Source: a virus. From it: 64,000 nucleotides of DNA. This document shows positions 8,600 to 56,567 of the stretch, in pieces. Location of the stretch: the IMG/VR virus record IMGVR_UViG_3300042890_006166, positions 32,001 through 96,000 of that record; one strand, given 5' to 3'. A program made the position numbers and the translations under genes. Under the pieces are notes generated by a model. The model searched no databases. It saw only the letters and a list, made by a program, of their open reading frames with translations, and was not told the origin of the DNA. Each line of letters begins with the position of its first letter. Positions within the stretch are counted from its first letter, which is position 1.

Positions 8600-8959
8600 A
8601 TGACAAAAGTTTACGTTACAAACTCCAGTTTAATGGCTGCTATTCTTGAATCTAAGAAAAAAGGCCAACTGACCAACGAGACAATCGAAATGTTCAATTT
8701 AATGATTGCTGGTATTTCCAAGAAAATGGCTTACAAAGATCCAGATGATAAAGCTGATTGTATGGCTTTTGCAATGGAAGATCTTTGTAAGTATTGGAAT
8801 AGGTTCGATCCAACCAAATCAAATAATCCATTTGCTTATTACACACAAATAGCAAAAAATGGATTTGCAAAAGGGTGGAAAAAAATTCACCCCCCTAAAT
8901 CCCCTAAAACCATTCCATTTTCTTATATTACAGGAGAAGACAATTCCTATAATATTTAG
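8600..8959 (+). CDS. gp55: T4 gp55-like late-transcription sigma factor (short)
   Basis: YVTNSSL start and C..YWNRFDPTKSNNPFAYYTQIA match the gp55 family signature (NFDPEKS.NPFAYFTQI). Confidence 0.8.
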   Translation: MTKVYVTNSSLMAAILESKKKGQLTNETIEMFNLMIAGISKKMAYKDPDDKADCMAFAMEDLCKYWNRFDPTKSNNPFAYYTQIAKNGFAKGWKKIHPPKSPKTIPFSYITGEDNSYNI

Positions 8960-10074: not shown

Positions 10075-11700
10075 ATGGCAGGATTTAACGAGAATCCAAA
10101 TACCAATCCCATATTCCAAAGAATAAGGGAATCCATCAAAAATCTGAGTAATTTCGGATTGCGGTATGGTGACATGGTGGTTAAAAATTCCCAAGCCATT
10201 GGTGCTACTGAAGCAGAATTTTTAAAGAAGGGACCTATAGAAGATGAAACAACTTTTTTCTCCTTAGGAAGACAAGATACGACAACCAGACAATACATTT
10301 CCTATTTTGATAAAGACTATGCAGGAAAAAGAGATTACTTGAGAAAATTTTCTTTAAACCCGGAAATTGAATATATTCTGGATACTGTTTGCGACGAGTC
10401 TATTTCTTATGATGGTTATAACTTTTTCGCTTATCCAGCATTCCTTAATATAACCGGGCTTAAACAAGATGTAATAGATAAAATTGATTCAACGTACAAA
10501 AAATTGTACGACATGTTTGGATTCAATGATGATATTTCTGCCTGGCAGTACTTCAGGCAGCTTTTGGTTGATGGTTTTGTAGCTTTCGAAATTGTGTATG
10601 ATGACAAAGGAAAAAATATTATCGGATTTAAAGAATTGGATGCTACCACGTTAATGCCCTCTGTAGAAAAGCAGAAAGATGGAACATTCTTGAATGTTTG
10701 GTATCAATATCCTAAGGACGAAAGAAAAAGAAGAATGCTGTATGATTCTCAGATCATTTATCTTTCTTACGCAAAGGGTAATTCTGTTTCAAGGGTAAGT
10801 TATACTGAAAGGTTAATTCGTCCATATAATGTTCTGAGGATCATAGAATACACTCGTGTTATTTGGTCTGTGATGAATGCATCTTTCCGTCTTAAAATGA
10901 CAGTTCCGGTAGGCTCCAGATCACAACAAAAGGCTATGCAAACACTCGGAGAGTTAATGTCTATCTATAAAGAAGATATTCAATTCAACGACGAAAGCGG
11001 TGAACTTTCAGTAAACGGACAACCAAAAATTCAGTTCTACAAAAATTATCTTATGCCCAAAGGTGCTTTGGGTACTCCTAATATTGAACCTTTAAATACT
11101 GCTGGACCAAATTTGAATGATCCAGCTCCTTTGGCTTACTTTTTTGACAAGTTGGTTCAAGAATCTAAAATACCATTTTCTAGATTTCAAGGGCCTGATG
11201 GCGGATCAACAGGTAAATATGCCAATGCAGCAGAAGGATTAGACAAAGAAGAAATTAGATTTTCGAAGTTCATTATGAGATTGAGATCTGTTTTTCAAGA
11301 TATTCTCATAAAACCTCTATGGATTCAATTGTGTCGTGATTTTCCCCAATTGGAGAAGGATTATATGTTCAGAAGTCAGCTTGGTTTAACTTTTGTTTCA
11401 GATAATCCGTTTCGTGTTAACCAGGAGATAGAAACGATGAGCAAAAGAAAAGAATCCATCGACTCTATGTACCAATTAGTGGATGAAGAAGGTCAACCTT
11501 TCTTTTCTTTAGGATTTTTGATTGAAAATTTTCTTGGAATGACCGAGGATGATATCAAGGCTAATGAAGAAGCGAAAGAGAAGGCAAAAAAGAAAAAAGA
11601 AAAAAATTCACCTGAGGGAGAAGGGGGAGAAGAAGGCGGTGCTCCTCCTGAAGGGCCAGAACCAGGAGCAGCCCCGCCTGAAACAGAAACACCAACATAA
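10075..11700 (+). CDS. gp20: Portal protein, copy A (T4 gp20-like)
   Basis: EIEYILDTVCDESI, WQYFRQLLVDG..AFEIV, FYKNY.MP, YFFDKL.QESKIP.SR, EEIRFSKFI.RLRS.F motifs of gp20 portals. Confidence 0.88.
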   Translation: MAGFNENPNTNPIFQRIRESIKNLSNFGLRYGDMVVKNSQAIGATEAEFLKKGPIEDETTFFSLGRQDTTTRQYISYFDKDYAGKRDYLRKFSLNPEIEYILDTVCDESISYDGYNFFAYPAFLNITGLKQDVIDKIDSTYKKLYDMFGFNDDISAWQYFRQLLVDGFVAFEIVYDDKGKNIIGFKELDATTLMPSVEKQKDGTFLNVWYQYPKDERKRRMLYDSQIIYLSYAKGNSVSRVSYTERLIRPYNVLRIIEYTRVIWSVMNASFRLKMTVPVGSRSQQKAMQTLGELMSIYKEDIQFNDESGELSVNGQPKIQFYKNYLMPKGALGTPNIEPLNTAGPNLNDPAPLAYFFDKLVQESKIPFSRFQGPDGGSTGKYANAAEGLDKEEIRFSKFIMRLRSVFQDILIKPLWIQLCRDFPQLEKDYMFRSQLGLTFVSDNPFRVNQEIETMSKRKESIDSMYQLVDEEGQPFFSLGFLIENFLGMTEDDIKANEEAKEKAKKKKEKNSPEGEGGEEGGAPPEGPEPGAAPPETETPT

Positions 11701-11702
11701 TT

Positions 11703-13310
11703 ATGGCAGGATTTAACGACGATAACAGCCAACAGCGTTCTTTCTTAGGAAATTTGTATCGAAATCTGTCCAGAATTGGAAGGTTTGGAATGCAGTATGA
11801 GGATATGGTCATCAGAAATTCGCAGGCTATAGGAGCAACTGAATCTACTTTTTTCAATAATCAAGGAACAGGATTTACTGAGAATGATGCTTTCTTTTGG
11901 ACATTGGGTTATCAAGACACCAGAGTAAGAAAATACATCGCTTATTTCGACAAGGACTATTTAGGCAAAAGAGAGTTTCTACGAAAATTTGCATTAAATG
12001 GAGAAATTGATTTTATCCTAGATACCCTTTCGGACGATGCCATAAATTATGACGATAAAAATTTCTTTGGATATCCTTCGTTATTGAATGTAGATCTAAA
12101 GCCCGAGGTGCGAGCTAAGGTGGAAGAAAATTTCAGAACTTTATACATGCTTTTTGGTTTTCAACAAAGCATTTTGGCCTGGCAATATTTCCGTCAATTT
12201 TTGATTGATGGGTTTTTGGCTTTTGAAATTGTTTACTCTACAGACGGCAAGAAAATTGTTGGATTTAAAGAATTAGATGCTACTTCTTTACAACCAGCCA
12301 CAGAACAACAACCTAACAAAGAATTTCAACAAATTTGGATTCAATATCCAGGTGATCCTAGAATGACCCGAAAATTAAAGGCAGAGCAAGTAATTTATCT
12401 TTCCTATGCCAAGGGTAACTCAGTTTCTAGAGTAAGTTATACGGAAAGACTTATTAGATCGTATAACATTTTAAGGGTGATGGAGAACACAAGAGTTATT
12501 TGGAATGTGATGAACGCTTCATACCGTTTGAAATTTGTTATTCCAGTTGGAACACAATCAGGACAAAAAGCAATGCAAACACTGGGACAATTAATGTCTC
12601 AGTATAAAGAAGAAATTCAAATCAACGATACTTCCGGGGAATTAACCGTAAATGGAGCTCCCAAAGTTCAGTTTTACAAAAATTATTTATTCCCTGAAAA
12701 AGACGGAGAATCTCCGGACATCAACACATTAAATCCTGCTGGACCCGATTTCAACGTCATGGAAAACGTTGTGTACTTTTACAACAAGCTGAAGTTAGAC
12801 TCCAAAATTCCATATGCTAGATTTGCTTCGAGGAGTGGTCCTGTGACTTACCAGATTTCTATCGATCAGTTAGAAAGAGATGAAATTAGATATGAAAAAT
12901 TCGTTACCCGTTTGAGGTCTGTTTTTCAAGAACTTTTGGTAAAACCTTTATACATACAAACCTGTTTGGATTTTCCGGCTTTGTCTGAAGACCGGTCTTT
13001 CAAAGTTAATTTGGGGTTGGATTTTGTGAAAGAAAATGTTTTTGAGCAATTGATTGTACTTTCTAATTATACAAAAAGAACAGCTTTTATTACCGCCTTG
13101 GGTGATATGAAACAGAAGATTGGGGAAGAAGAAGTTCCTTATTTCGATAAGGAATGGCTTATCAAAAGATGGCTAGGTCTGAGCATGGACGAATATCGTT
13201 CCAATCAAAAGTACAAAGATGATGAAAAAAAACAGGCAGACAAGGATAAAAAGGACAAGGGAGAAGAAGGAGGAGGTGGAGAAGGGGGAGCACCGGATTT
13301 TACGCTTTAA
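11703..13310 (+). CDS. gp20: Portal protein, copy B (T4 gp20-like)
   Basis: Full-length paralog of copy A with the same gp20 motifs (EIDFILDTLSDDAI, YFYNKLKLDSKIP, DEIRYEKFV.RLRS.F). Confidence 0.88.
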   Translation: MAGFNDDNSQQRSFLGNLYRNLSRIGRFGMQYEDMVIRNSQAIGATESTFFNNQGTGFTENDAFFWTLGYQDTRVRKYIAYFDKDYLGKREFLRKFALNGEIDFILDTLSDDAINYDDKNFFGYPSLLNVDLKPEVRAKVEENFRTLYMLFGFQQSILAWQYFRQFLIDGFLAFEIVYSTDGKKIVGFKELDATSLQPATEQQPNKEFQQIWIQYPGDPRMTRKLKAEQVIYLSYAKGNSVSRVSYTERLIRSYNILRVMENTRVIWNVMNASYRLKFVIPVGTQSGQKAMQTLGQLMSQYKEEIQINDTSGELTVNGAPKVQFYKNYLFPEKDGESPDINTLNPAGPDFNVMENVVYFYNKLKLDSKIPYARFASRSGPVTYQISIDQLERDEIRYEKFVTRLRSVFQELLVKPLYIQTCLDFPALSEDRSFKVNLGLDFVKENVFEQLIVLSNYTKRTAFITALGDMKQKIGEEEVPYFDKEWLIKRWLGLSMDEYRSNQKYKDDEKKQADKDKKDKGEEGGGGEGGAPDFTL

Positions 13311-25425: not shown

Positions 25426-27459
25426 ATGATGATGGAAGATTTACCTTTTATGAATGAGAATCTGGTGTTTATCTTGGAGAAGCAAGGTCATCACGTTGAG
25501 GCTTCTAAAGACTCAGATGGCTACACTTTAAAAGGTATTGCAGCACAGTTCGGGAAAGAAAACAATAACAACAGAATTTACGAAGAAAGTGAATATCTCC
25601 CACATTTGGATTACCTGAATGATAAGATCAAACAAAAGAGATTGGTTGGAGAGTTGGATCATCCTGAAAAATTTGATGTCTCTTTGAAGAATATCTCTCA
25701 TATCATCGAGGATCTCCAATACGACAAAAGCGGAAGAGTACTTAAAATCACGGTAAAATTGCTTGACACTCCTGCTGGCCAAATAGCCAAGAAATTGGTT
25801 GATGCAGGCATTCCACTTTCTATTTCTTCTCGTGCAGCTGGAAATGTTGGCCCAGATAAGAAAGTTCAAATTAAAAAAATCTTCACTTATGATCTTGTAG
25901 CAGATCCAGGTTTTCAGGATGCTCAATTAGAAAGAGTATACGAAAGCGCTGGTTTTACATTCTCTGATTTTTCGAATCGGAACAAAAATTCAGTTGTTCA
26001 CGATCTAAAATGTCTCAACGAGTCTTTAGGTATCAAAAATGATTCGGGAGTGATGATATATAAGGTTGACGATAATGAAGAATTTAAAAAAATACTCAAA
26101 TCAGACAAAAATAAAAATAACATCATGGAGTCCAGAAAAGAATATGTAACGAGTGAAGAACTCAACAATTATTCCATTTTCTTAAAGAAAAAAATGGATG
26201 AGCTCGAGTCTCAAATCCGCGAGGCTAAGACCACTCAGAATTTGGTAGAAAGCTCAGATTCTTATACAAAACAACTCGAGGAAAGAGTAGATCGTCTAGA
26301 AAAATACTGCGAGTATTTGGCAGAAAATCTGGAAGCATCTATCAAGTATGGCGAATACGTTGCAGAGAATTTGGACAACTCCATTACTTACAGCAAATAT
26401 CTCGCAGAGAATCTTGACAAGAATATCTCCTATTCTAAATACCTCGCAGAGAACGTTGACAAGTCAATTTTGTATTCCGAGTATGTGGCAGAGAACGTGG
26501 ATAAAGGTATTAACTACTCTAAATATCTCGCAGAAAAATTGGATGACACCATTCAATATTCCGAATATCTTGCAGAGAATGTGGATCACACTATTGCCTA
26601 CTCAGAATATCTGGCAGAAAATGTAGACAGAAATATTTCTTATTCTGAATATCTCGCAGAGAAGTTAGATAGAAACATTTCTTATGCTGAATATCTCGCG
26701 GAGAATTTGGACAAAGGTATTGCCTACTCAGAATATCTTGGTGAAAACCTTGATAAAGGTATTGCCTACTCAGAATATATTGGCGAAAAATTAGAACAAG
26801 GAATTTCTTATTCCGAATATTTGGCAGAAAATGTAAACAGAACAATTTCTTATTCTGAATACATAGCCGAAAAATTAAATGGCACGATTTCGTACACCGA
26901 GTCTTTGTCTGAAAGCGTAGGATATCAACCAGTGGTTGAAAAAGACGCACGGAGACAGGCAGAAGTCGCCTCAAGAACTGAATTAGCGGAGTCTGGGTTT
27001 GCAGGAGATTATACAAATCTTGGCAAACAAATTGATTTCCTAATTGAGTCGGTCCAAACCCAAAAGACCGAAAATGATCAAAGAAAGGCTGAAAGCAAAT
27101 GGCAGCCTACTGCTCAAACACAAAAAGCAGAACAAGTTCTCAACGAGAATGCAGACGCCAAACCAACATCTGGCCACAAGTTCATCGACGAGATGCCAAC
27201 AGAGTATGCTCCGATTTGGGAGTCATTGAGCGAAGGACATAAGCAATCAATTATTGCCCAGTCTATTTTCCACAATCTCAATACACCTTATCAGATCAGA
27301 AATTTCTGGTCAACCCGTCAATTTGGACCTAAGCCTCTGGCTATGCAAAAATTGCAAGAGAACGAAAACATATCAGAGTCTTCAAACAGTCAGGCAACCG
27401 CTGCTTACAGCAACGATTATCTGAGCTGGGTGGCTAAGTCACTAGAAGGCAAATTCTAA
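25426..27459 (+). CDS. gp21: Prohead protease (T4 gp21-like) fused to a repeat-rich scaffold/core domain
   Basis: N.NNRIY, GELDHP, SH.I, TP.GQIA..L, ISSRAAG (catalytic Ser), YDLVADPGF; followed by a 14-aa-repeat coiled coil; directly upstream of the MCP. Confidence 0.9.
   Translation: MMMEDLPFMNENLVFILEKQGHHVEASKDSDGYTLKGIAAQFGKENNNNRIYEESEYLPHLDYLNDKIKQKRLVGELDHPEKFDVSLKNISHIIEDLQYDKSGRVLKITVKLLDTPAGQIAKKLVDAGIPLSISSRAAGNVGPDKKVQIKKIFTYDLVADPGFQDAQLERVYESAGFTFSDFSNRNKNSVVHDLKCLNESLGIKNDSGVMIYKVDDNEEFKKILKSDKNKNNIMESRKEYVTSEELNNYSIFLKKKMDELESQIREAKTTQNLVESSDSYTKQLEERVDRLEKYCEYLAENLEASIKYGEYVAENLDNSITYSKYLAENLDKNISYSKYLAENVDKSILYSEYVAENVDKGINYSKYLAEKLDDTIQYSEYLAENVDHTIAYSEYLAENVDRNISYSEYLAEKLDRNISYAEYLAENLDKGIAYSEYLGENLDKGIAYSEYIGEKLEQGISYSEYLAENVNRTISYSEYIAEKLNGTISYTESLSESVGYQPVVEKDARRQAEVASRTELAESGFAGDYTNLGKQIDFLIESVQTQKTENDQRKAESKWQPTAQTQKAEQVLNENADAKPTSGHKFIDEMPTEYAPIWESLSEGHKQSIIAQSIFHNLNTPYQIRNFWSTRQFGPKPLAMQKLQENENISESSNSQATAAYSNDYLSWVAKSLEGKF
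26055..26062 (+). promoter_or_regulatory. Internal late promoter GATATATA inside the protease gene
   Basis: Exact motif at the protease/scaffold junction, 62 nt before the in-frame ATG at 26125. Confidence 0.6.
26125..27459 (+). CDS. Nested in-frame scaffold/prohead core protein (gp22-like role)
   Basis: In-frame ATG (MESRKEY) preceded by AAAAATAAAAATAACATC, the same A-rich leader style as other starts, with an upstream late promoter. Confidence 0.55.
   Translation: MESRKEYVTSEELNNYSIFLKKKMDELESQIREAKTTQNLVESSDSYTKQLEERVDRLEKYCEYLAENLEASIKYGEYVAENLDNSITYSKYLAENLDKNISYSKYLAENVDKSILYSEYVAENVDKGINYSKYLAEKLDDTIQYSEYLAENVDHTIAYSEYLAENVDRNISYSEYLAEKLDRNISYAEYLAENLDKGIAYSEYLGENLDKGIAYSEYIGEKLEQGISYSEYLAENVNRTISYSEYIAEKLNGTISYTESLSESVGYQPVVEKDARRQAEVASRTELAESGFAGDYTNLGKQIDFLIESVQTQKTENDQRKAESKWQPTAQTQKAEQVLNENADAKPTSGHKFIDEMPTEYAPIWESLSEGHKQSIIAQSIFHNLNTPYQIRNFWSTRQFGPKPLAMQKLQENENISESSNSQATAAYSNDYLSWVAKSLEGKF
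26311..26898 (+). repeat. 14 x 42-bp coding tandem repeat ((E/K)YLAENLDKxIxYS)
   Basis: 14 consecutive 14-aa units seen in the translation, synonymously diverged at DNA level. Confidence 0.95.
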
Positions 27460-49075: not shown

Positions 49076-51901
49076 ATGTCAATAATTCCTAAGTGTTTAA
49101 CTGATGATCAGATTGATAATTTCGTAAATAATGTTAATAAAACATCTGACGAAATTTTAGGTGAAAGTAAATTTAAAATTCCCAACCCGGCATTACCTGG
49201 CCTTGGCTTATTGGTTAAGTTACAAATCAAAATTTTTGAAAAATCTATTTTGGTGAATTTTCTTCCAATTATAAAAGGGAAACAAATTTTAACAGAAGCT
49301 TTCACTAAATTGAGAGTTTTAAAATTCATCAGGGAAAGGACTGAAGAAGTTGCAGAATTGTTACGAAATCCAATACAAACACTTTTAAACCAAGCGGTAA
49401 ATATTCCTTTAGCACAAGATTTTCCGTTTCCAGTTGCCTTGCTTTTTGGAATTAGAACTTCTAGTGGAGATATACAGAATCTAATAAGTGACATAAACAC
49501 AGTAGGTAACGATGTTCAATCTGTTAATACATTGTTAAACTACAAAATAGAATTTGATTCTATTTTGGATCCACCCCCAGGATTGATCACCTCTCCTGAT
49601 AGATCACCAGATAATCTTCAACAAATGAAAGTTAATTTCACGAGTGAATCTGGCGAAAGGGATTCTCCTTTGTTATTTCTAAAACCTGGTGATTATTTTT
49701 CACTTGATTTTGAAAACTTTACCAATACATATCAAGTTTCAGAAATTGAAATACAAACTAATTTCATCCAATTATTTTTTCAGCTTCAGGCAACTTCTTC
49801 TCCTTCTTTCGTATCACAACAAGAAAAAGTTTTCGTTCCTGGATTCTCCTCCGTTTCTCTCAGAATTTCTAGAAAAATTTCATTAAGACAATTCCTGAAT
49901 GAACAGGGAAAATTAATAATTCCTCTTACGGCATTTGGTATTAGTTTACCTATATCCTTAGAATTGGGAAATTTCGATAGATTGAGCGAAACGAATCCAA
50001 CTTACAAATTTGTTAAGAAATTAGAGGCGGAAACCAATTTGGATTTCTCAAAAGTTCTTAGTGATATGATCGATGGAATTTTCCCAGTTATCGATTGGGA
50101 AGAAATACAAAAGGATCCCAGATTTAGAAGTTCACAAGAGGACTCCAAGTTAGAAATGATAAACCTGGCTCGTTTAATCCAAATCGGAACGGATAATCCT
50201 TTGTTTATGATTCGAATGATTTTGAATTATCTGAAGTTACTGTTGCTACCAATAGAGGTCGTTGTTTCTGTATTTAAAACAATACTTTCTCAAATAAGTA
50301 ACCCAATTTCTTTAATCAGAATTATTTTTCTAATTATTTCTAATCCTTTGAGATTTTTATGTGACATTATTTCAGATGCTTTTTTGAAATTCCTGAGGGT
50401 ATATTTAGAACCTCCTTTAGCTCCTTTGATTCAGTGGAATGAGCTAGTTCAAGATCCTGTTGATAGAGGAAGAGGTTTAAAACCTTTGTTTTCTGATTTG
50501 ATTTGTGGAAGATTTAAAAACAAGTTGGCAAATTACAATCCAGATTCTAATTTTTTCGTTCAAGAATCAGCCAAATTAAAAATCCCACCAGGAGAAAATC
50601 CAATTGTTCAATTAAGTTATAATTTGACACAGAATCCCATTCCAGATCTAGGAGAAGTAAGTTTGCAATCACCAATCTTAAGTCAAAATACATCGATGAG
50701 ATTTAGCACAATTACTGACACTGTCGAAAACGGTCTTGCCTATTTGACTTCCCTAGGGATTGGTGACACCTTTTATCTTAGCTCTAATGGCCAATTTCAA
50801 AATTTTAGGGTTTCAGGAAAAAATCTAATTGAAAATAACAACCAAACTTATTTTGAATATTTAGTACAACCGGTGAATGTAACCGAAGTTTATGCCACCC
50901 AAGAAAATCAACAGCTCCAATCCGCCTTCAACGGTATTGTTTCGGATCAATTTAAAGCATCAATCAGTGTAAACAATCCAAATAAAACTTTTTTGTTTAT
51001 TTTAGAGCGTTACTTGCCAATGAAGGCCATAGCCGCCTGGGAAAGCATAAAGGGAATTTTTTCTATTACAGTGGCTCTTGCCTCCGAAATACCTTCTCTT
51101 ATTCCTTTATGTTTTAAATGTATATTTTCTGGAAATAGAAATACTCAACAAACCCCATCTTCTCTGACACAAGAGGGTTCTTCGGATTTTCTTCAAGGTT
51201 TTATTTCTTCTTTGGACATTGAATTAGACCCAGATAGAAGAAATTTTGGTGAGTATAAATCCGGGGAAGGAAGAGAAGCCTCAGAAGAATTCTTTCGGGA
51301 AATTCAATTAAAAGAAATTAATCCAGGAAGTCCAGGAGGGTCTGAAAAAACACCCAACACGGAAGGGGGAATTCAAGAAGTGTTTTTGGATTTACAAAAA
51401 GCAAGGCAAGCAGAGGGAAAATCAACTCGTGTTTACAGATCAAATCTTCCTGTCGAATTTCAATCTAATTTCAGATGGGATTCTTTAACACTGAACCAAA
51501 TAGGAGAAAATCTGAAAGTTTTGTCTAGAGTTGCATATGAGCTTTCCTTTAGGGCTACAAGTAGTAGTCAAGAAAACTCAAATACTATCATAGATTTCTT
51601 AGCTAGTCTAAATCCTCTTACTTCTATTGCAAATGATATCAGAAATGAAAGTCAAAATGAATTGGTAAACAAATCTATTCCTATTACAGTTTGGGCTTTA
51701 ACGGAGAACGGCGAAAGCGAATTCAAGATAATTAACAATGGACCACTGTACCAATCCTTTTTGGATTATTCTTTTTTTACAAAATACGATCCAGAAATTG
51801 AAACCACGGAATTTAGATTTAAAGCTAGTCAAGTGAGATACTATGTTAATTTTAATTTCAGATTTGCTAAAGATATTTTGCTTCCTGCTTTGAGAGACTA
51901 G
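49076..51901 (+). CDS. Large hypothetical tail/baseplate protein with a hydrophobic segment
   Basis: 941 aa, follows the spike gene; hydrophobic/amphipathic region LNYLKLLLLPIEVVVSVF...IRIIFLIIS; two copies of an L..GD.F.L beta domain. Confidence 0.55.
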   Translation: MSIIPKCLTDDQIDNFVNNVNKTSDEILGESKFKIPNPALPGLGLLVKLQIKIFEKSILVNFLPIIKGKQILTEAFTKLRVLKFIRERTEEVAELLRNPIQTLLNQAVNIPLAQDFPFPVALLFGIRTSSGDIQNLISDINTVGNDVQSVNTLLNYKIEFDSILDPPPGLITSPDRSPDNLQQMKVNFTSESGERDSPLLFLKPGDYFSLDFENFTNTYQVSEIEIQTNFIQLFFQLQATSSPSFVSQQEKVFVPGFSSVSLRISRKISLRQFLNEQGKLIIPLTAFGISLPISLELGNFDRLSETNPTYKFVKKLEAETNLDFSKVLSDMIDGIFPVIDWEEIQKDPRFRSSQEDSKLEMINLARLIQIGTDNPLFMIRMILNYLKLLLLPIEVVVSVFKTILSQISNPISLIRIIFLIISNPLRFLCDIISDAFLKFLRVYLEPPLAPLIQWNELVQDPVDRGRGLKPLFSDLICGRFKNKLANYNPDSNFFVQESAKLKIPPGENPIVQLSYNLTQNPIPDLGEVSLQSPILSQNTSMRFSTITDTVENGLAYLTSLGIGDTFYLSSNGQFQNFRVSGKNLIENNNQTYFEYLVQPVNVTEVYATQENQQLQSAFNGIVSDQFKASISVNNPNKTFLFILERYLPMKAIAAWESIKGIFSITVALASEIPSLIPLCFKCIFSGNRNTQQTPSSLTQEGSSDFLQGFISSLDIELDPDRRNFGEYKSGEGREASEEFFREIQLKEINPGSPGGSEKTPNTEGGIQEVFLDLQKARQAEGKSTRVYRSNLPVEFQSNFRWDSLTLNQIGENLKVLSRVAYELSFRATSSSQENSNTIIDFLASLNPLTSIANDIRNESQNELVNKSIPITVWALTENGESEFKIINNGPLYQSFLDYSFFTKYDPEIETTEFRFKASQVRYYVNFNFRFAKDILLPALRD

Positions 51902-51935
51902 CATACAATCGAAGTTTGAATCTTGGTTTTAAAAA

Positions 51936-51943
51936 GATATATA
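51936..51943 (+). promoter_or_regulatory. Putative late promoter GATATATA
   Basis: 24 nt before the ATG at 51968. Confidence 0.7.
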
Positions 51944-51967
51944 GATGGTCTTTTTAAACCAAAAAAA

Positions 51968-53131
51968 ATGAAATCATCCAAAAAAATTTTAGTAGAAACT
52001 TCTAGTTTCAACTGGGACATTCCCAACAACTTCACGGTAAATCCAAAATTTAAAACCGCCGAGAAGACCAAAGTTTACTGTCATGAAAGTTATGCTTTGG
52101 AATTGTACAATCTGATGACCGGCAGCATGAGCGGGTTTAGAACTTCAAAGGATTTGTCCGCTGGGGGTTCATATTCGTGTGTTATTTCGGCTTCTGATTC
52201 CACCCACGCCTTAGCACAAACAGAGTCTGGGCAAACCATCTATATCGACCTTAAAAAAGAGTCCAAAGATGCTGCCAGATTGGGCCTGATGGATGCCATC
52301 AACTTTGAAGTGGGCTCGGAAATTCAAGCAGCCGTTCGTCAAATCGCCGGCACCTATTATGGTTCTGTCGTAGATTGTTACATTCAAAATTTAAAGGCAG
52401 AATTTTTCGACCAAATCAAAAAGCAAACCTTAGCATATGAGGCAAGGGTAAAATCCATCAACAAAGGGGGTTATCTGGTAGATGTCAATGGAGTTGAGTG
52501 TTTTCTTCCTGGATCTCTGGCAGCAGCCAACAAGATCACAGATTTCGACTCCTACATTGGCAAGAGATTTTATGTTATGATCGATGGTTATGTTGCTGCT
52601 AAAGACATCTTTGTTGTTTCTTACAAGAAGTATTTACACAAAATCATGGATCACAAGATCCAAGAATTGGATATGACCAAAAAATACAAGGGTCACGTCA
52701 CCGGAACTTCCGCCTTTGGTGTATTTGTTGAATGGGAAGAGATTTTCACTGGATTGATTCATAAAACAGAATTTGAAAATCAGGTCATCGAAGGTTTCAA
52801 TCCAGGCGATGAGATCGAATTTTACATTAAAGAAATTAAGGACGACAACCGTCTGACTTTGACCTTCGGGGAACCTCTAGAGAAAAATAAATGGATGTAC
52901 GAATTGAAGAAAAATGTAGAAGACGGCACCTCAGAACCCATGGATGCCATCGTTAAACACAAAAGAAAAAATGGTGCCTTAATTGAAATTGGAGACTCTG
53001 GCCAGCTTGCTCTTGTTCCACAGGAAAAACTGGGCAAGAATTCCAAAAATCTCCAGGCAGGAGATACCATTCGGGTTCAGGTCTATCAGGTAGATCCATT
53101 GGCCGGAAAAATATACGCTAGTCAGGTCTAA
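51968..53131 (+). CDS. rpsA: Ribosomal protein S1 (bS1)-like protein with about 4 S1/OB domains
   Basis: YEARVKSINKGGYLVDVNGVECFLPGS, YKGHVTGTSAFGVFVE...TGLIHKTE...GDEIEFYIKEI, GDTIRVQVYQVD; start placed at ATG 51968. Confidence 0.82.
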   Translation: MKSSKKILVETSSFNWDIPNNFTVNPKFKTAEKTKVYCHESYALELYNLMTGSMSGFRTSKDLSAGGSYSCVISASDSTHALAQTESGQTIYIDLKKESKDAARLGLMDAINFEVGSEIQAAVRQIAGTYYGSVVDCYIQNLKAEFFDQIKKQTLAYEARVKSINKGGYLVDVNGVECFLPGSLAAANKITDFDSYIGKRFYVMIDGYVAAKDIFVVSYKKYLHKIMDHKIQELDMTKKYKGHVTGTSAFGVFVEWEEIFTGLIHKTEFENQVIEGFNPGDEIEFYIKEIKDDNRLTLTFGEPLEKNKWMYELKKNVEDGTSEPMDAIVKHKRKNGALIEIGDSGQLALVPQEKLGKNSKNLQAGDTIRVQVYQVDPLAGKIYASQV

Positions 53132-54522
53132 TGAATTCACACTTCGACAAATATCAGGCCCTTTCATCATCCGTTCTAGGATTCGAATTTGAATTCTTTT
53201 CCGAGATGGTGAGAGGCCGAATTGTCGAATCTCTTTCTAAGCTGCTTGGAAAAAAGGTTATTTTGTCCGACAAATATCATTCTAAAATTCCAGTCAGCGC
53301 CGATAGTTTCAAGCTAGAACCAGACTATTCCGGAGGAAGCAAAATGAACGAGCTAATCACTGGACCCATGTCATATGGAGAAGCCATTCCGGTTTTAATC
53401 AAAGTTTTAAAATGGATTGAAGCCAATGGTTGGACCACGGATCGGTGTGCTTTTCAATTTTCTATTTCTTTCGATCCTCACGACAGAAAATTAGAAAAAA
53501 TGGAACGTTTGGATCGTATGAAATTTATTTTAGGAATTGATGAAGGTATAGTTTATTCGTCATTTGGAAACCGAACCAATAATGTGTATGCCAAATCTCT
53601 AAAGAAGATCGTACCAGTCAACAAATTTTCAATTTTAGAAAACATCACCACGATCGATCCAAAGTTGTTTAAGTTGCCTGGAGAGAAATATTATGGAGCA
53701 AATTTTACCAAATTACAAGATGGATATGTTGAGATACGCTATCTTGGAGGAAAGGACTACCAAAAGAAAATTAATCCTATTTTAGAAGTTACGGATTATG
53801 TTACTTTGTTGTTACATGATATCCTATCTGGCAAAAAGGTCTACGGAAAAGAGGACGTCCAAAAATTACAGGAGATGATGAGACAGCACACGAAGGTCGT
53901 GAGAAGTTTTTCAAATCCTGATTCATTCTTCATGAACTATCCAGATTTTCACGTGTTGGTTGATTTGAAAGGTTACGAAGAAAATATTAAAACTTATTGG
54001 TCACACATTAGGGAAAAAATATTTGATCTAATTGTTGAAGGTGGTATACAGGCTTGTTTTTTCAATTATGATACTTCCATTGGTAGATTCCAAATCAAAG
54101 ATGCCAAAAGCAAAAATGGATTGATTTTAAGGGATGTTGACATTTTTGACAGCATAGTTAAAAACGGAAAATTAGAGAACTGTAATTTATATGGAACACA
54201 GGTAAAAAATTCTGAGATTTATGACTGTAAACTAGTTTTTGGCAACAAGCTCTACGACAGCAAATTTCAAAATTCCATAGCAGACTATGGAAATTTGCTT
54301 GAGAACTGTTACATCGATTGTCCACAGCAGATGGTAGATTGTGAAGTCAAAGGTGGAGTATTGAGAAAGGCGGATTTAGGAAGGAACTCACTTATTTCCG
54401 AACAAACCGAGAAGGTCAAAGATTTCAACGAAATCCGTACCACACGTTTTATTTCAGATTCAAGGTTGAAAAATTTGAACGACCCAATCGCCAAGATCAA
54501 ATTTAAAAATATCAATTACTAA
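53131..54522 (+). CDS. Amidoligase (COOH-NH2 ligase type 2)-like protein with a C-terminal beta-helix-like region
   Basis: LGFEFEF, LEPDYS, NELITGP, KYYGANF, YVEIR; the C-terminus has short repeats (NCNLY..VKNSEIYDCKL). Confidence 0.65.
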   Translation: MNSHFDKYQALSSSVLGFEFEFFSEMVRGRIVESLSKLLGKKVILSDKYHSKIPVSADSFKLEPDYSGGSKMNELITGPMSYGEAIPVLIKVLKWIEANGWTTDRCAFQFSISFDPHDRKLEKMERLDRMKFILGIDEGIVYSSFGNRTNNVYAKSLKKIVPVNKFSILENITTIDPKLFKLPGEKYYGANFTKLQDGYVEIRYLGGKDYQKKINPILEVTDYVTLLLHDILSGKKVYGKEDVQKLQEMMRQHTKVVRSFSNPDSFFMNYPDFHVLVDLKGYEENIKTYWSHIREKIFDLIVEGGIQACFFNYDTSIGRFQIKDAKSKNGLILRDVDIFDSIVKNGKLENCNLYGTQVKNSEIYDCKLVFGNKLYDSKFQNSIADYGNLLENCYIDCPQQMVDCEVKGGVLRKADLGRNSLISEQTEKVKDFNEIRTTRFISDSRLKNLNDPIAKIKFKNINY

Positions 54523-55361: not shown

Positions 55362-56567
55362 ATGGAAATTCTTCAAAAAATCGAATCTTGGAGGGGCAAG
55401 CCTGGACAAGCTTTTGGCTCTTATCTTTTTTTAATAAAGACCAATCCCATTTATGTCTCCGATTTGGAATCGTTGACTAGTTTTTTAGATTCACATTATC
55501 ACAAGGAATCCATTTCTATCCAACAGAGATTTTATCACGTTTGGTTCGATTTCTATGAAATCGAAACTTGTTTTCATTGTGGATCCCCTAGAAAATTTGC
55601 TAACATACCGAAGTTTTCTATAGATCGTTATGGAGAAAAACCAACTAACCCTGTGAATTACTACAAAACATGTATGTTAGAAAATTGTTTAAAGAAACAC
55701 AACAAAATTTCGACCTCACAAAGTTTGTTAAAAAAATATGGGACTAGCAATCCTATGTTAGTACCTGGAGCGATGGATAAATTGAAAGAAAGCAACAGAA
55801 AAAAATATGGAACTGAATTTTTCACTTCTACGGAAGAATTCAAATCGAAAACTAAAAAAACTTTTCAAAAAAAATATGGGAGGCATCCAACAAGTTTGAA
55901 AGAAACACAAGACAAAAAAAGAAAAACAAATTTGGAAAAGTATGGATATGAGAATGCCTTGGATAATCCGGAAATTAAACAAAAATCGAAAGACACAAAC
56001 AAACAAAAATATGGGGGGAATTCGAGTATGTGTTCAAACGAGATAAAAGAAAAATCGAAAGAAACTAACCGTAAAAAACATGGTGTTGATTGGTATGTTC
56101 AAAGTGATGAATTTAAAATTAAATTCAAAGAGACTATGATGGAAAAATATGGGGTTGAGCAGGTGATGCACTACACACCTTCTTTTGAAAAATCTCTGGA
56201 TACATCTTACAAGAAAAAATTATTTGTATTTCCTTTTGGTAGAATCGAGAAAATTCAAGGATATGAATGTTTTGCCTTGAATGAATTGATTAGCTCAGAT
56301 TATTTAGAGGAAGATATTATCGTCAACAACAAAGAAATTGAAAAATATACTGGAAAAATTTGGTACTTGGATTCTGAACAAAAAAAGAGAAAATACTACC
56401 CCGATATTTATTTGAAATCTGAAAATAAAATAATTGAAGTGAAATCTGATTATACGTACGATGCTGGATATACTATAAACATCAGAAAGAAAAAAGCCTG
56501 TATCAATCTTGGATTTTTATTCGAATTTTGGATTTATGACGAAAAGGGCAACAAAAAAATAAAGTAG
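55362..56567 (+). mobile_element. Putative free-standing homing endonuclease (Zn finger + KYG repeats + PD-(D/E)XK domain)
   Basis: CFHC...CMLENC Zn ligands; about 7 repeats of roughly 23 aa (..K.TN.(E/K)KYG...); C-terminal YYPDIYL..ENKIIEVKS; inserted among conserved structural genes. Confidence 0.7.

What the first reader, a model, noticed from the sequence alone, without database searches (positions are those of the whole stretch)
51936..53131. Late-expressed four-domain ribosomal protein S1 homolog embedded among tail genes
Seen: about 4 S1 domains (versus 6 in typical Gram-negative bS1). The second closely follows the RpsA D2 pattern (GG.LVD..G...FLPGS), and a late promoter lies directly upstream. 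Established: bS1 D1-D2 dock on the 30S subunit and D3 onwards bind A/U-rich leaders; S1 homologs have been reported in some huge phages. Inference: a phage S1 replaces host bS1 late in infection to favour the SD-less A-rich phage structural mRNAs, giving a translational counterpart to the sigma cascade.
Basis: partly seen in the sequence, partly recalled or inferred. Interest (0 to 1): 0.75.

Follow-up and report, generated by a model that had tools for sequence, protein, structure and literature searches.

The report
Phage four-domain ribosomal protein S1 copy
A large uncultured freshwater phage carries a shortened, four-domain copy of bacterial ribosomal protein S1 that keeps the parts Bacteroidia S1 uses to dock on the ribosome and sits behind a late-type promoter among baseplate and neck genes; phage S1 genes and this idea were published in 2020, and the function is still untested.

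Summary
ATG 51968 to stop 53131 (+) encodes a 387-aa protein with an N-terminal extension and four S1/OB domains. That motif occurs 13 times in the window, all on the + strand (1.03 expected), before portal, protease and baseplate genes. A gp55-like late sigma gene is present.

All best sequence and fold matches are ribosomal bS1. Domains 1 and 2 match bS1 D1 and D2 specifically. Domains 3 and 4 look like bS1 D4/D5. The N-terminus aligns with the Bacteroidia-specific FNW helix that touches uS8 in Flavobacterium johnsoniae. A complex model places the next segment and D1 on the S1 site of uS2.

The family is large and phage-borne. In this clade the gene is followed at once by an Amidoligase_2/beta-helix gene.

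Ribosome docking is supported in silico only. Late timing, displacement of host bS1 and preference for phage mRNAs are inferences. Leaders across the whole window lack Shine-Dalgarno motifs, as do those of Bacteroidia hosts.

Possible rpS1 genes in huge phages were reported in 2020, and this scan reached the same verdict on other genomes. This is a new member of a known kind.

The parts
51936..51944 (+). GATATATAG promoter-like motif, 24 nt upstream of the S1 start codon
   Evidence: 13 matches of GATATATAR in the window, all on the + strand, against 1.03 expected. Kept upstream of S1 in L004, L009 and L010. It precedes portal, protease and baseplate genes.
51923..51962 (+). Inverted repeat (hairpin) that encloses the promoter motif and ends 6 nt before the ATG
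   Evidence: RNA fold -12 kcal/mol, z -2.94, 2 of 200 shuffles as good. By eye it is only weakly kept in relatives. Its role is unknown.
51968..53131 (+). Coding sequence of the 387-aa phage S1 homologue, stop codon included
   Evidence: ORF. Start fixed by alignment A1. Pfam S1 E 9.2e-20. Best PDB and Foldseek matches are bS1.
52007..52033 (+). N-terminal FNWDIPNNF motif (residues 14-22); F14 and W16 are invariant in alignment A1
   Evidence: Aligned by hhalign to the FDW/FNW motif of Bacteroidia bS1. In F. johnsoniae bS1, residues 11-20 (FLANFNWHNF) form the helix that contacts uS8 (PMC13000457).
52064..52153 (+). Residues 33-62: strand KVYCH plus a helix (43-54, Y42/L46/Y47), the predicted uS2-binding segment
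   Evidence: Interface residues of the complex model. Helix seen in the AF2 model. Y42 is invariant.
52169..52366 (+). S1 domain 1 (residues 68-133), with a helical insert
   Evidence: AF2 model. Its profile scores best on bS1 D1, at 13-23 bits. Loop 87-92 (G88 and Q89 invariant) is predicted to sit on the uS2 zinc-pocket region.
52436..52621 (+). S1 domain 2 (residues 157-218), carrying the GGYLVD...FLPGS signature
   Evidence: Its profile hits only bS1 D2, at 42-46 bits. Mean majority-residue share 0.84 in A1.
52682..52864 (+). S1 domain 3 (residues 239-299), a canonical RNA-binding-type S1 domain
   Evidence: Best Pfam S1 stretch. Its profile scores best on bS1 D5, then D4, not D3. Mean majority-residue share 0.84 in A1.
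52940..53125 (+). S1 domain 4 (residues 325-386)
   Evidence: Pfam S1_2 E 5.3e-6. Its profile scores best on bS1 D4/D5, at 30-44 bits in the four bS1 proteins printed. AF2 model.
53131..54522 (+). Downstream 463-aa gene whose ATG overlaps the S1 stop by 1 nt: Amidoligase_2 (glutamine-synthetase-like) N-terminal domain plus a C-terminal beta-helix
   Evidence: Found immediately downstream of S1 in 6 of 6 related loci that have sequence there, at S1 identity 62-30%. Its L052 orthologue passes the Pfam Amidoligase_2 cut-off (27.6 against 22 bits). GS fold Z 8.1, rmsd 4.0, 162 residues aligned; beta-helix Z 9-11. In the Atlas, 30 of 30 named clusters are Amidoligase_2, score 0.92.
8600..8959 (+). 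gp55-like late sigma factor gene; context for the promoter motif
   Evidence: phrog_234 late sigma transcription factor, E 1.2e-13.

Best explanation
The gene encodes a phage 'mini-bS1', a 387-aa protein built as follows: an N-terminal FNW helix, a second N-terminal segment, S1 domain D1, D2, and two C-terminal RNA-binding-type S1 domains that resemble bS1 D4/D5.

The most likely mechanism is that the N-terminal elements and D1 dock it at the bS1 site of the host 30S subunit, on uS2 and probably uS8. The host is probably a freshwater member of class Bacteroidia. The two distal OB domains would then capture A-rich, Shine-Dalgarno-less leaders. In this way the protein would add to or displace host bS1 and sustain translation initiation while virion proteins are made.

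It is transcribed from a GATATATAG promoter of the kind that precedes the structural genes, presumably read by the phage's gp55-like sigma, together with an overlapping amidoligase/beta-helix gene.

Shown here: architecture, homology, motif statistics, synteny and a predicted uS2 interface. Inferred: ribosome binding in cells, late timing, and any effect on translation.
For: The top NCBIfam hits are all rpsA models (E 1e-22 to 1e-19), and single-domain S1 proteins score only 1e-8 or worse. The top PDB sequence hits are all bS1, best 8.1e-14. The top four Foldseek hits are E. coli bS1 on the 30S or 70S, best 4.5e-20.

Domain profiles assign D1 to bS1 D1 and D2 uniquely to bS1 D2. The N-terminal 152 residues align with the Bacteroidia bS1 N-terminus plus D1 at probability 96.5%, E 8e-10, with FNW on FDW/FNW. 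In F. johnsoniae that motif is the uS8-contacting helix, and the bS1 N-terminus sits on uS2 and uS8 (PMC13000457).

Complex model of residues 1-152 with a Bacteroidia uS2: score 0.78, best of 3 controls 0.01. That mark was reached by 58 of 80 solved complexes and 2 of 110 mismatched pairs; these counts hold only roughly because my own alignments were used. The runs agree in at least 84% of contacts, and the partner pLDDT is at least 75. The predicted interface uses uS2 H18-H21, 34-41 (F35) and N206/D208-S212. These are the equivalents of E. coli uS2 His18, Phe32, Asn203, Asp205 and Arg208, which bind S1 (PMC4288201).

The promoter motif is enriched, strand-specific and conserved upstream of S1, and a gp55-like sigma is present. 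[quoted passage not shown]

The family is large and under strong constraint: 691 homologues, and D2/D3 have a mean majority-residue share of 0.84. Small contigs at 99% identity or more, covering parts of the gene and its junction with the next gene, occur in two metatranscriptome libraries; DNA carry-over is not excluded.
Against: The protein scores far below every curated bS1 cut-off (76.8 against 577 bits for TIGR00717). It has two rather than four distal RNA-binding domains.

A bS1-uS2 complex has been solved, so the pass of the complex model may come from memory. It shows likeness, not binding.

No feature was found that would let it prefer phage over host messages, since both lack SD sequences.

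A translation role does not explain the fixed place in the baseplate/neck operon or the coupling to an amidoligase. A 41%-identity relative sits beside helicase and DHFR genes instead, so late co-expression is not universal in the family.

A quick D1-D2 tree puts all 30 cellular Bacteroidota bS1 proteins in one clade, apart from the phage family (support 100). Descent from a Bacteroidia bS1 is therefore not shown by the tree.
Confidence: 0.55

Rival explanations
1. The protein works off the ribosome as an RNA-binding factor. It could chaperone or protect phage late mRNAs. It could also serve as a subunit or targeting factor for a phage enzyme, for example the adjacent amidoligase. Q-beta replicase and T4 RegB use host S1 in this way, through the same D1-D2 surfaces.
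For: The S1 gene and the amidoligase/beta-helix gene overlap start to stop in 6 of 6 related loci across 62-30% S1 identity. Q-beta replicase binds exactly the S1 residues that bind uS2 (PMC4288201), so a conserved docking surface need not mean a ribosome. The authors of PMC7162821 left the role open as 'on or off the ribosome'.
Against: The Bacteroidia-specific FNW helix, a uS8 contact, and the uS2-type interface are both retained, which an enzyme partner would not obviously need. Lak phages have an S1 relative but no amidoligase homologue at E 1e-3. In five huge-phage records, four distinct genomes, the two genes lie 48 kb or more apart.
Confidence: 0.2
2. The protein is a competitive blocker. 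It occupies the bS1 site but, lacking two RNA-binding domains, it impairs translation of structured host mRNAs. The result is host shut-off rather than stimulation.
For: The docking module is retained while the distal part is cut to two domains. The predicted uS2 interface is the same as that of bS1.
Against: D3 is among the most conserved parts of the protein (0.84), and D3 and D4 are good S1 domains. That argues that RNA binding is selected for. A late promoter is an odd time for host shut-off.
Confidence: 0.1
3. The protein is packaged into the virion and delivered with the DNA, so that it acts on ribosomes at the start of the next infection. This would explain why it is made late with baseplate and neck proteins.
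For: The gene keeps its place between baseplate hub and neck genes, behind a late-type motif, in relatives down to 30% identity.
Against: No virion proteome is available. No packaging signal or structural domain was seen. A 41%-identity relative lies among replication genes.
Confidence: 0.07
4. The protein is a structural tail or baseplate component that merely uses OB folds and has no RNA role.
For: Its position among baseplate genes. The neighbouring hub protein also has an OB domain.
Against: It shows specific, collinear homology to bS1 N-terminus-D1-D2, including the D2 signature and the uS2 interface. It has no PHROG structural family.
Confidence: 0.03

Closest known systems
Ribosomal protein bS1 (RpsA) of class Bacteroidia, e.g. 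Flavobacterium johnsoniae bS1 (PMC13000457)
   Same: Same order of parts: N-terminal aromatic FNW/FDW helix, second N-terminal segment, D1, D2 with the FLPGS signature, then canonical S1 domains. It has a predicted uS2 interface at the known S1 site. The setting is SD-less, A-rich leaders.
   Different: 387 aa and four domains instead of about 590 aa and six. The two distal domains resemble D4/D5, so the equivalents of D3 and D6 are missing. It scores far below the curated rpsA cut-offs. D1 carries a helical insert and the loop after the FNW motif is longer. It is encoded by a phage behind a phage promoter. In a D1-D2 tree it lies outside the cellular bS1 clade.
'Possible rpS1' genes of huge phages (Al-Shayeb et al. 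2020, PMC7162821)
   Same: Multi-S1-domain proteins in large phages whose genomes lack identifiable SD sequences, proposed to redirect initiation. tblastn finds relatives of this protein in those very genomes, the Lak phages and LR7565xx records.
   Different: That paper could not confirm true rpS1 proteins because the S1 domain is ubiquitous. Here the N-terminal docking module, the D1/D2 assignment, the promoter motif and the amidoligase neighbour are documented for one defined 380-aa family.
Phage-encoded bS21 of freshwater Bacteroidetes phages (Chen et al. 2022, PMC9723584)
   Same: A ribosomal protein of the initiation region, encoded next to core structural genes in large freshwater phages of Bacteroidetes and proposed to act late.
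   Different: It is a different ribosomal protein. Late expression of bS21 was shown by metatranscriptomics; for this S1 only small RNA-library contigs were seen. No bS21 gene was found in the 112-kb fragment held here, and that fragment is only 41% complete.
Four-domain bS1 of low-GC Gram-positive bacteria (from general knowledge; not tested here)
   Same: About 380-400 aa with four S1 domains.
   Different: The phage protein carries the Bacteroidia-type N-terminal motif. The two distant family members examined in context lie on phage-like contigs. No comparison with Firmicutes sequences was made.

Membership tests
Ribosomal protein bS1 (RpsA) | Tandem array of four to six S1 (OB) domains | tested here: met
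   Four OB barrels in the AF2 model. Pfam S1 E 9.2e-20 with three stretches, plus S1_2.
Ribosomal protein bS1 (RpsA) | Divergent D1 and D2 of the ribosome-binding type at the N-terminal end, in that order | tested here: met
   The D1 profile scores best on bS1 D1. The D2 profile hits only bS1 D2, at 42-46 bits. The TIGR00717 alignment is collinear, 125-398 of the 402-aa frame to model positions 55-339.
Ribosomal protein bS1 (RpsA) | N-terminal segment plus D1 that anchor the protein on uS2 (and on uS8 in Bacteroidia) | tested here: inconclusive
   hhalign probability 96.5%, E 8e-10, with the FNW motif aligned. Complex model score 0.78 against a best control of 0.01, with the interface at the known S1 site of uS2. 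A like complex is solved, so the pass shows likeness, not binding. The uS8 contact was not modelled.
Ribosomal protein bS1 (RpsA) | Score over the curated equivalog cut-off (NCBIfam/TIGRFAM rpsA models) | tested here: not met
   Best 79.6 bits against a cut-off of 524 (NF004952); 76.8 against 577 for TIGR00717. It is a bS1 homologue, not an equivalog.
Ribosomal protein bS1 (RpsA) | Physical presence on the 30S subunit and a role in initiation | not testable with these tools
   This needs sedimentation or pull-down, initiation assays or cryo-EM.
T4-type late transcription unit (gp55-dependent promoter) | Short A/T-rich -10-like element shared by structural genes, with a gp55-like sigma encoded by the phage | tested here: inconclusive
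   Motif 13 times against 1.03 expected, all on the + strand. It lies before portal, protease and baseplate genes. A gp55-like gene is present, phrog_234 E 1.2e-13. No transcript 5' ends or timing data are available.
Non-ribosomal S1-domain proteins (PNPase, RNase R/II, Tex, CvfB, GSP13/CvfD) | A catalytic or other family-specific domain beside the S1 domain(s), or best homology to these families | tested here: not met
   Only single-domain matches at E 1e-8 to 1e-4, against 1e-22 for rpsA models. Foldseek ranks CvfB fifth (2.8e-10), behind four bS1 chains. There is no other Pfam domain.
Amidoligase_2 (PF12224), for the downstream partner gene | Glutamine-synthetase-like carboxylate-amine ligase domain recognised by the Pfam model | tested here: inconclusive
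   The window's copy gets no Pfam hit. Orthologues score 27.6 (over the cut-off of 22), 21.7, 19.7 and 13.1 bits. GS fold Z 8.1, rmsd 4.0, 162 residues aligned. Atlas, 30 of 30 named clusters. By eye, the usual His-containing motif reads CAFQFS here.

The most novel reading that the evidence does not exclude
The S1 copy and the overlapping amidoligase/beta-helix gene form one functional unit acting on the host ribosome. The S1 module could carry the ligase to the 30S subunit or to mRNA. Alternatively, the ligase could covalently modify the phage S1 or a neighbouring ribosomal protein, giving a phage-made 'specialised ribosome' during virion production. A second form of this reading is that the pair is packaged and delivered with the DNA.
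Probability: 0.12. Interest if true: 0.7.

Novelty: new member of a known kind. Interest (0 to 1): 0.35.

Why it matters
Bacteroidia start translation without Shine-Dalgarno pairing and depend on bS1 and upstream adenines. A compact phage-made bS1 that keeps the lineage-specific docking helices would be a direct handle on how phages retune that unusual initiation system. It would also be a natural minimal bS1 for structural and biochemical work. The value of this particular case is modest. Phage rpS1 genes and the hijacking idea date from 2020, a parallel case (bS21) has expression data, and this scan has confirmed the same family on several other genomes. What this case adds is a clean definition of the family: its architecture, the docking motifs, the conserved promoter and the amidoligase neighbour.

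Tried and rejected
- The N-terminal 167 residues alone, searched against PDB sequences, gave nothing relevant.
- hhalign of alignment A1 against a single bS1 aligned only D2 and the start of D3. Profiles on both sides were needed.
- PHROGs has no family for the S1 protein.
- uS2 was not found in the incomplete Saprospirales bin that holds a related contig, so uS2 of five related Bacteroidota genomes was used.
- There is no tRNA or tmRNA gene in the window or in the 112-kb record, and no bS21 gene. The record is about 41% complete, so this says little.
- Foldseek of the partner model gave no match at E 0.001 or better. VIA-align was needed.
- Parts of the stretch without cover in the RNA-library contigs are uninformative.
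- The D1-D2 tree is the quick tree, not the finished careful one. It has no bS1 from other phyla, so it cannot name a donor.
- The idea that the amidoligase is tied to S1 everywhere was rejected. In five huge-phage records (four distinct genomes) the two genes are far apart, and Lak phages lack the ligase.
- Membership in Tex, PNPase, CvfB or GSP13 was considered and rejected.

Full report
**What is there.** The window is part of a 112,745-base viral record estimated at 41% complete. It has about 35% G+C and nearly all genes are on the + strand. An open frame runs from 51923 to 53131. Alignment with 34 homologues of 57-88% identity shows that all of them begin at the position of ATG 51968, so the protein has 387 residues. 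It is the first base of a GATATATAG motif at 51936-51944, 24 nt before the start codon.

**The protein.** Pfam finds the S1 domain (E 9.2e-20, three stretches) and S1_2. An AlphaFold2 model built on the alignment (mean pLDDT 77) has four OB barrels at residues 68-133, 157-218, 239-299 and 325-386. They are joined by helices and preceded by about 65 residues that contain one confident helix at 43-54.
- All 15 PDB sequence matches at E 0.01 or better except two are bS1 or S1 homologues. The best is a 591-aa bS1 at 8.1e-14.
- The four best Foldseek matches are E. coli bS1 on the 30S or 70S, best 4.5e-20. CvfB comes fifth.
- In NCBIfam the top nine hits are rpsA models (1.6e-22 to 1.9e-9). GSP13/CvfD, PNPase and RNase R match one domain only, at 1e-8 or worse. 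No rpsA cut-off is approached: 79.6 against 524 bits.

The protein is therefore a bS1 homologue but not an equivalog.

**Which bS1 domains.** I took 30 bS1 genes from genomes of the phylum of a bin that holds a related contig. I then scored profiles of each phage domain against them.
- Phage D1 scores best on bS1 D1 (13-23 bits).
- Phage D2 hits only bS1 D2 (42-46 bits against 16 or less elsewhere).
- Phage D3 scores best on bS1 D5, then D4.
- Phage D4 scores about equally on D4 and D5.

The protein thus keeps the ribosome-proximal half of bS1 and two distal, canonical S1 domains. D2 and D3 are the most conserved parts, with a mean majority-residue share of 0.84 in the alignment. The N-terminus scores 0.53.

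**The N-terminus.** Alone, it finds nothing in the PDB. A profile of residues 1-152 from 104 family members does align with the N-terminus plus D1 of the ten bS1 proteins that carry an F/Y-D/N-W motif. The probability is 96.5%, E is 8e-10 and 114 columns align. The phage FNW (F14 and W16 invariant) falls on the bS1 FDW/FNW, and the following helix and D1 are in register.

Two of those bS1 sequences carry FLANFNWHNF. This is the stretch that Roy-type cryo-EM work on F. johnsoniae identifies as residues 11-20 of bS1, a helix resting on uS8. In that structure the N-terminal helix-loop-helix is held by uS2 and uS8 (PMC13000457). The phage reads FNWDIPNNF. Among 125 full-length representatives of 50%-identity clusters of the family, 39 have F[DN]W in the first 90 residues. 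In the close set, 113 of 120 carry F[DNE]W in the first 40 residues.

**Docking on uS2.** I modelled residues 1-152 with uS2 (residues 1-235) of a Bacteroidota genome whose bS1 is 64% identical to that of the bin.
- The score was 0.78 and the best of three controls 0.01.
- That mark was reached by 58 of 80 solved complexes and 2 of 110 mismatched pairs. These counts hold only roughly here because my own alignments were used.
- The runs agree in at least 84% of contacts, and the partner's pLDDT is at least 75.
- The interface uses uS2 residues 18-22, 34-41 and 206-212. On the S1 side it uses residues 33-62 and the D1 loop 87-92.

In E. coli the S1 N-terminal helix stacks on uS2 Phe32. D1 touches the zinc pocket (His18, Asp188, Asp204, Asp205) together with Asn203 and Arg208 (PMC4288201). 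The predicted surfaces are the equivalents of these. Because that complex is solved, the pass may come from memory. It shows that the phage protein looks like a uS2 binder, not that it binds.

**Promoter and context.** GATATATAR occurs 13 times in the window, always on the + strand, against 1.03 expected and at most 4 in 100 shuffles. In the whole record it occurs 16 times forward and never in reverse. It lies 20-50 nt before the starts of the first portal gene, the prohead protease, a baseplate wedge gene and others. The phage encodes a gp55-like late sigma (phrog_234, 1.2e-13).

The motif is kept upstream of the S1 gene in relatives of 58-62% identity. A CATATATAAT variant stands there in a relative of about 35% identity. 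'Late' is a reasonable inference but is not shown.

The flanking genes are structural:
- a baseplate hub (48405),
- a 941-aa protein of no known family (49076),
- the S1 gene,
- a 463-aa gene,
- a gp13-like neck protein (54524),
- a homing endonuclease,
- baseplate wedge genes from 56624.

The same order is found on a 399-kb contig whose S1 is 59% identical and on a 50-kb contig whose S1 is 30% identical. A 41%-identity relative lies between a PIF1 helicase and DHFR-type genes.

**Leaders.** Only 2 of 51 genes have an SD core at -20 to -4, against 6.3 +/- 2.4 at random positions. Leaders are 46% A and 9% G. This fits Bacteroidia-type initiation. It holds for every gene class in the window, so it gives no basis for preferring late or phage messages.

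**Family and host.** The word-indexed search found 691 homologues, the best 120 all 383-403 aa long and on contigs of up to 399 kb. The exhaustive search found 118 clusters at E 1e-30 or better and 386 at 1e-10 or better. The best 150 are almost all 330-430 aa. Relatives occur in Lak phages of Prevotella and in the huge phages of the 2020 survey. One related contig is binned with a Saprospirales genome that has its own full-length bS1.

Near-identical DNA occurs in lake and freshwater metagenomes of several studies. Small contigs of 99% identity or more cover 52221-52435, 52524-52762 and 52989-53220 in two metatranscriptome libraries. The last of these bridges the S1 stop and the next gene's start. 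This is weak evidence of transcription, because DNA carry-over is not excluded.

A quick tree of D1-D2 puts all 30 cellular bS1 proteins in one clade (support 100) apart from the 125 family members. Descent from a Bacteroidia bS1 is thus suggested by the N-terminal motif but not by the tree, which lacks other phyla.

**The neighbour.** The 463-aa gene starts at 53131, overlapping the S1 stop by one base. A homologue lies immediately downstream of S1 in 6 of 6 related loci that have sequence there, across 62-30% S1 identity.
- Its orthologues match Pfam Amidoligase_2. One passes the cut-off (27.6 bits) and three fall below it.
- Its model matches glutamine synthetases over residues 5-241 (Z 8.1, rmsd 4.0, 162 aligned).
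- It matches beta-helix proteins over roughly 270-460 (Z 9-11).
- In the Atlas, all 30 named look-alike clusters are Amidoligase_2 (0.92).

In five huge-phage records (four distinct genomes) the ligase lies far from the S1-like gene. Lak phages lack it. The coupling is therefore a property of this clade.

**Verdict.** A ribosome-docking phage bS1 behind a late-type promoter is the best reading, at about 0.55. Replacement of host bS1 and selectivity for phage mRNAs are untested, and nothing in the sequences points to selectivity.

The kind is known (PMC7162821; the parallel bS21 case is PMC9723584). Earlier follow-ups of this scan reached the same verdict on other genomes.

Noticed in passing
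window 53131-54522: A 463-aa gene overlaps the S1 stop by 1 nt. It has a glutamine-synthetase-like Amidoligase_2 domain plus a C-terminal beta-helix resembling pentapeptide-repeat proteins. By eye, the usual His-containing ligase motif reads CAFQFS, so activity is uncertain. It is adjacent to S1 in 6 of 6 related loci but unlinked in larger huge phages.
   Followed up: partly
window 51923-51962: A hairpin (-12 kcal/mol, z -2.94) encloses the GATATATAG motif and ends 6 nt before the S1 start. A transcript that starts downstream of the motif would lack its 5' arm, so it could form only in read-through RNA. By eye it is weakly conserved in relatives.
   Followed up: partly
window 55362-56567: A homing-endonuclease-like gene (DUF7487, phrog_3339) lies between the neck gene and the baseplate wedge genes. 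The 59%-identity relative L004 has no gene of that size at this place, which suggests a mobile insertion. A NUMOD3-type endonuclease separates S1 from the ligase-sized gene in another relative.
   Followed up: no
window 49076-51901: A 941-aa protein with no Pfam or PHROG family lies between the baseplate hub and S1. The syntenic slot holds a 290-aa gene in L004 and 571-aa plus 197-aa genes in L052. This is a variable slot, possibly a spike or receptor-binding part.
   Followed up: no
window 10075-13310: Two adjacent full-length portal paralogues (541 and 535 aa) both match phrog_213, at 2.3e-58 and 6.5e-57. The first is preceded by the GATATATAG motif.
   Followed up: no
window 26055-26063: A GATATATAA motif lies inside the 677-aa prohead protease gene, after the protease domain (residues 24-285). 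It could drive a nested scaffold product.
   Followed up: no
L009 (contig of a Saprospirales bin) and L011: A 64-kb contig carrying a 62%-identity S1 and the ligase is binned with a Saprospirales genome that has its own full-length bS1 with a long acidic N-terminal extension. This is a weak host hint that rests on binning only.
   Followed up: partly
window 1-64000, gene leaders: Shine-Dalgarno cores are rarer before start codons (2 of 51) than at random positions (6.3 +/- 2.4). Leaders are 46% A and 9% G.
   Followed up: yes
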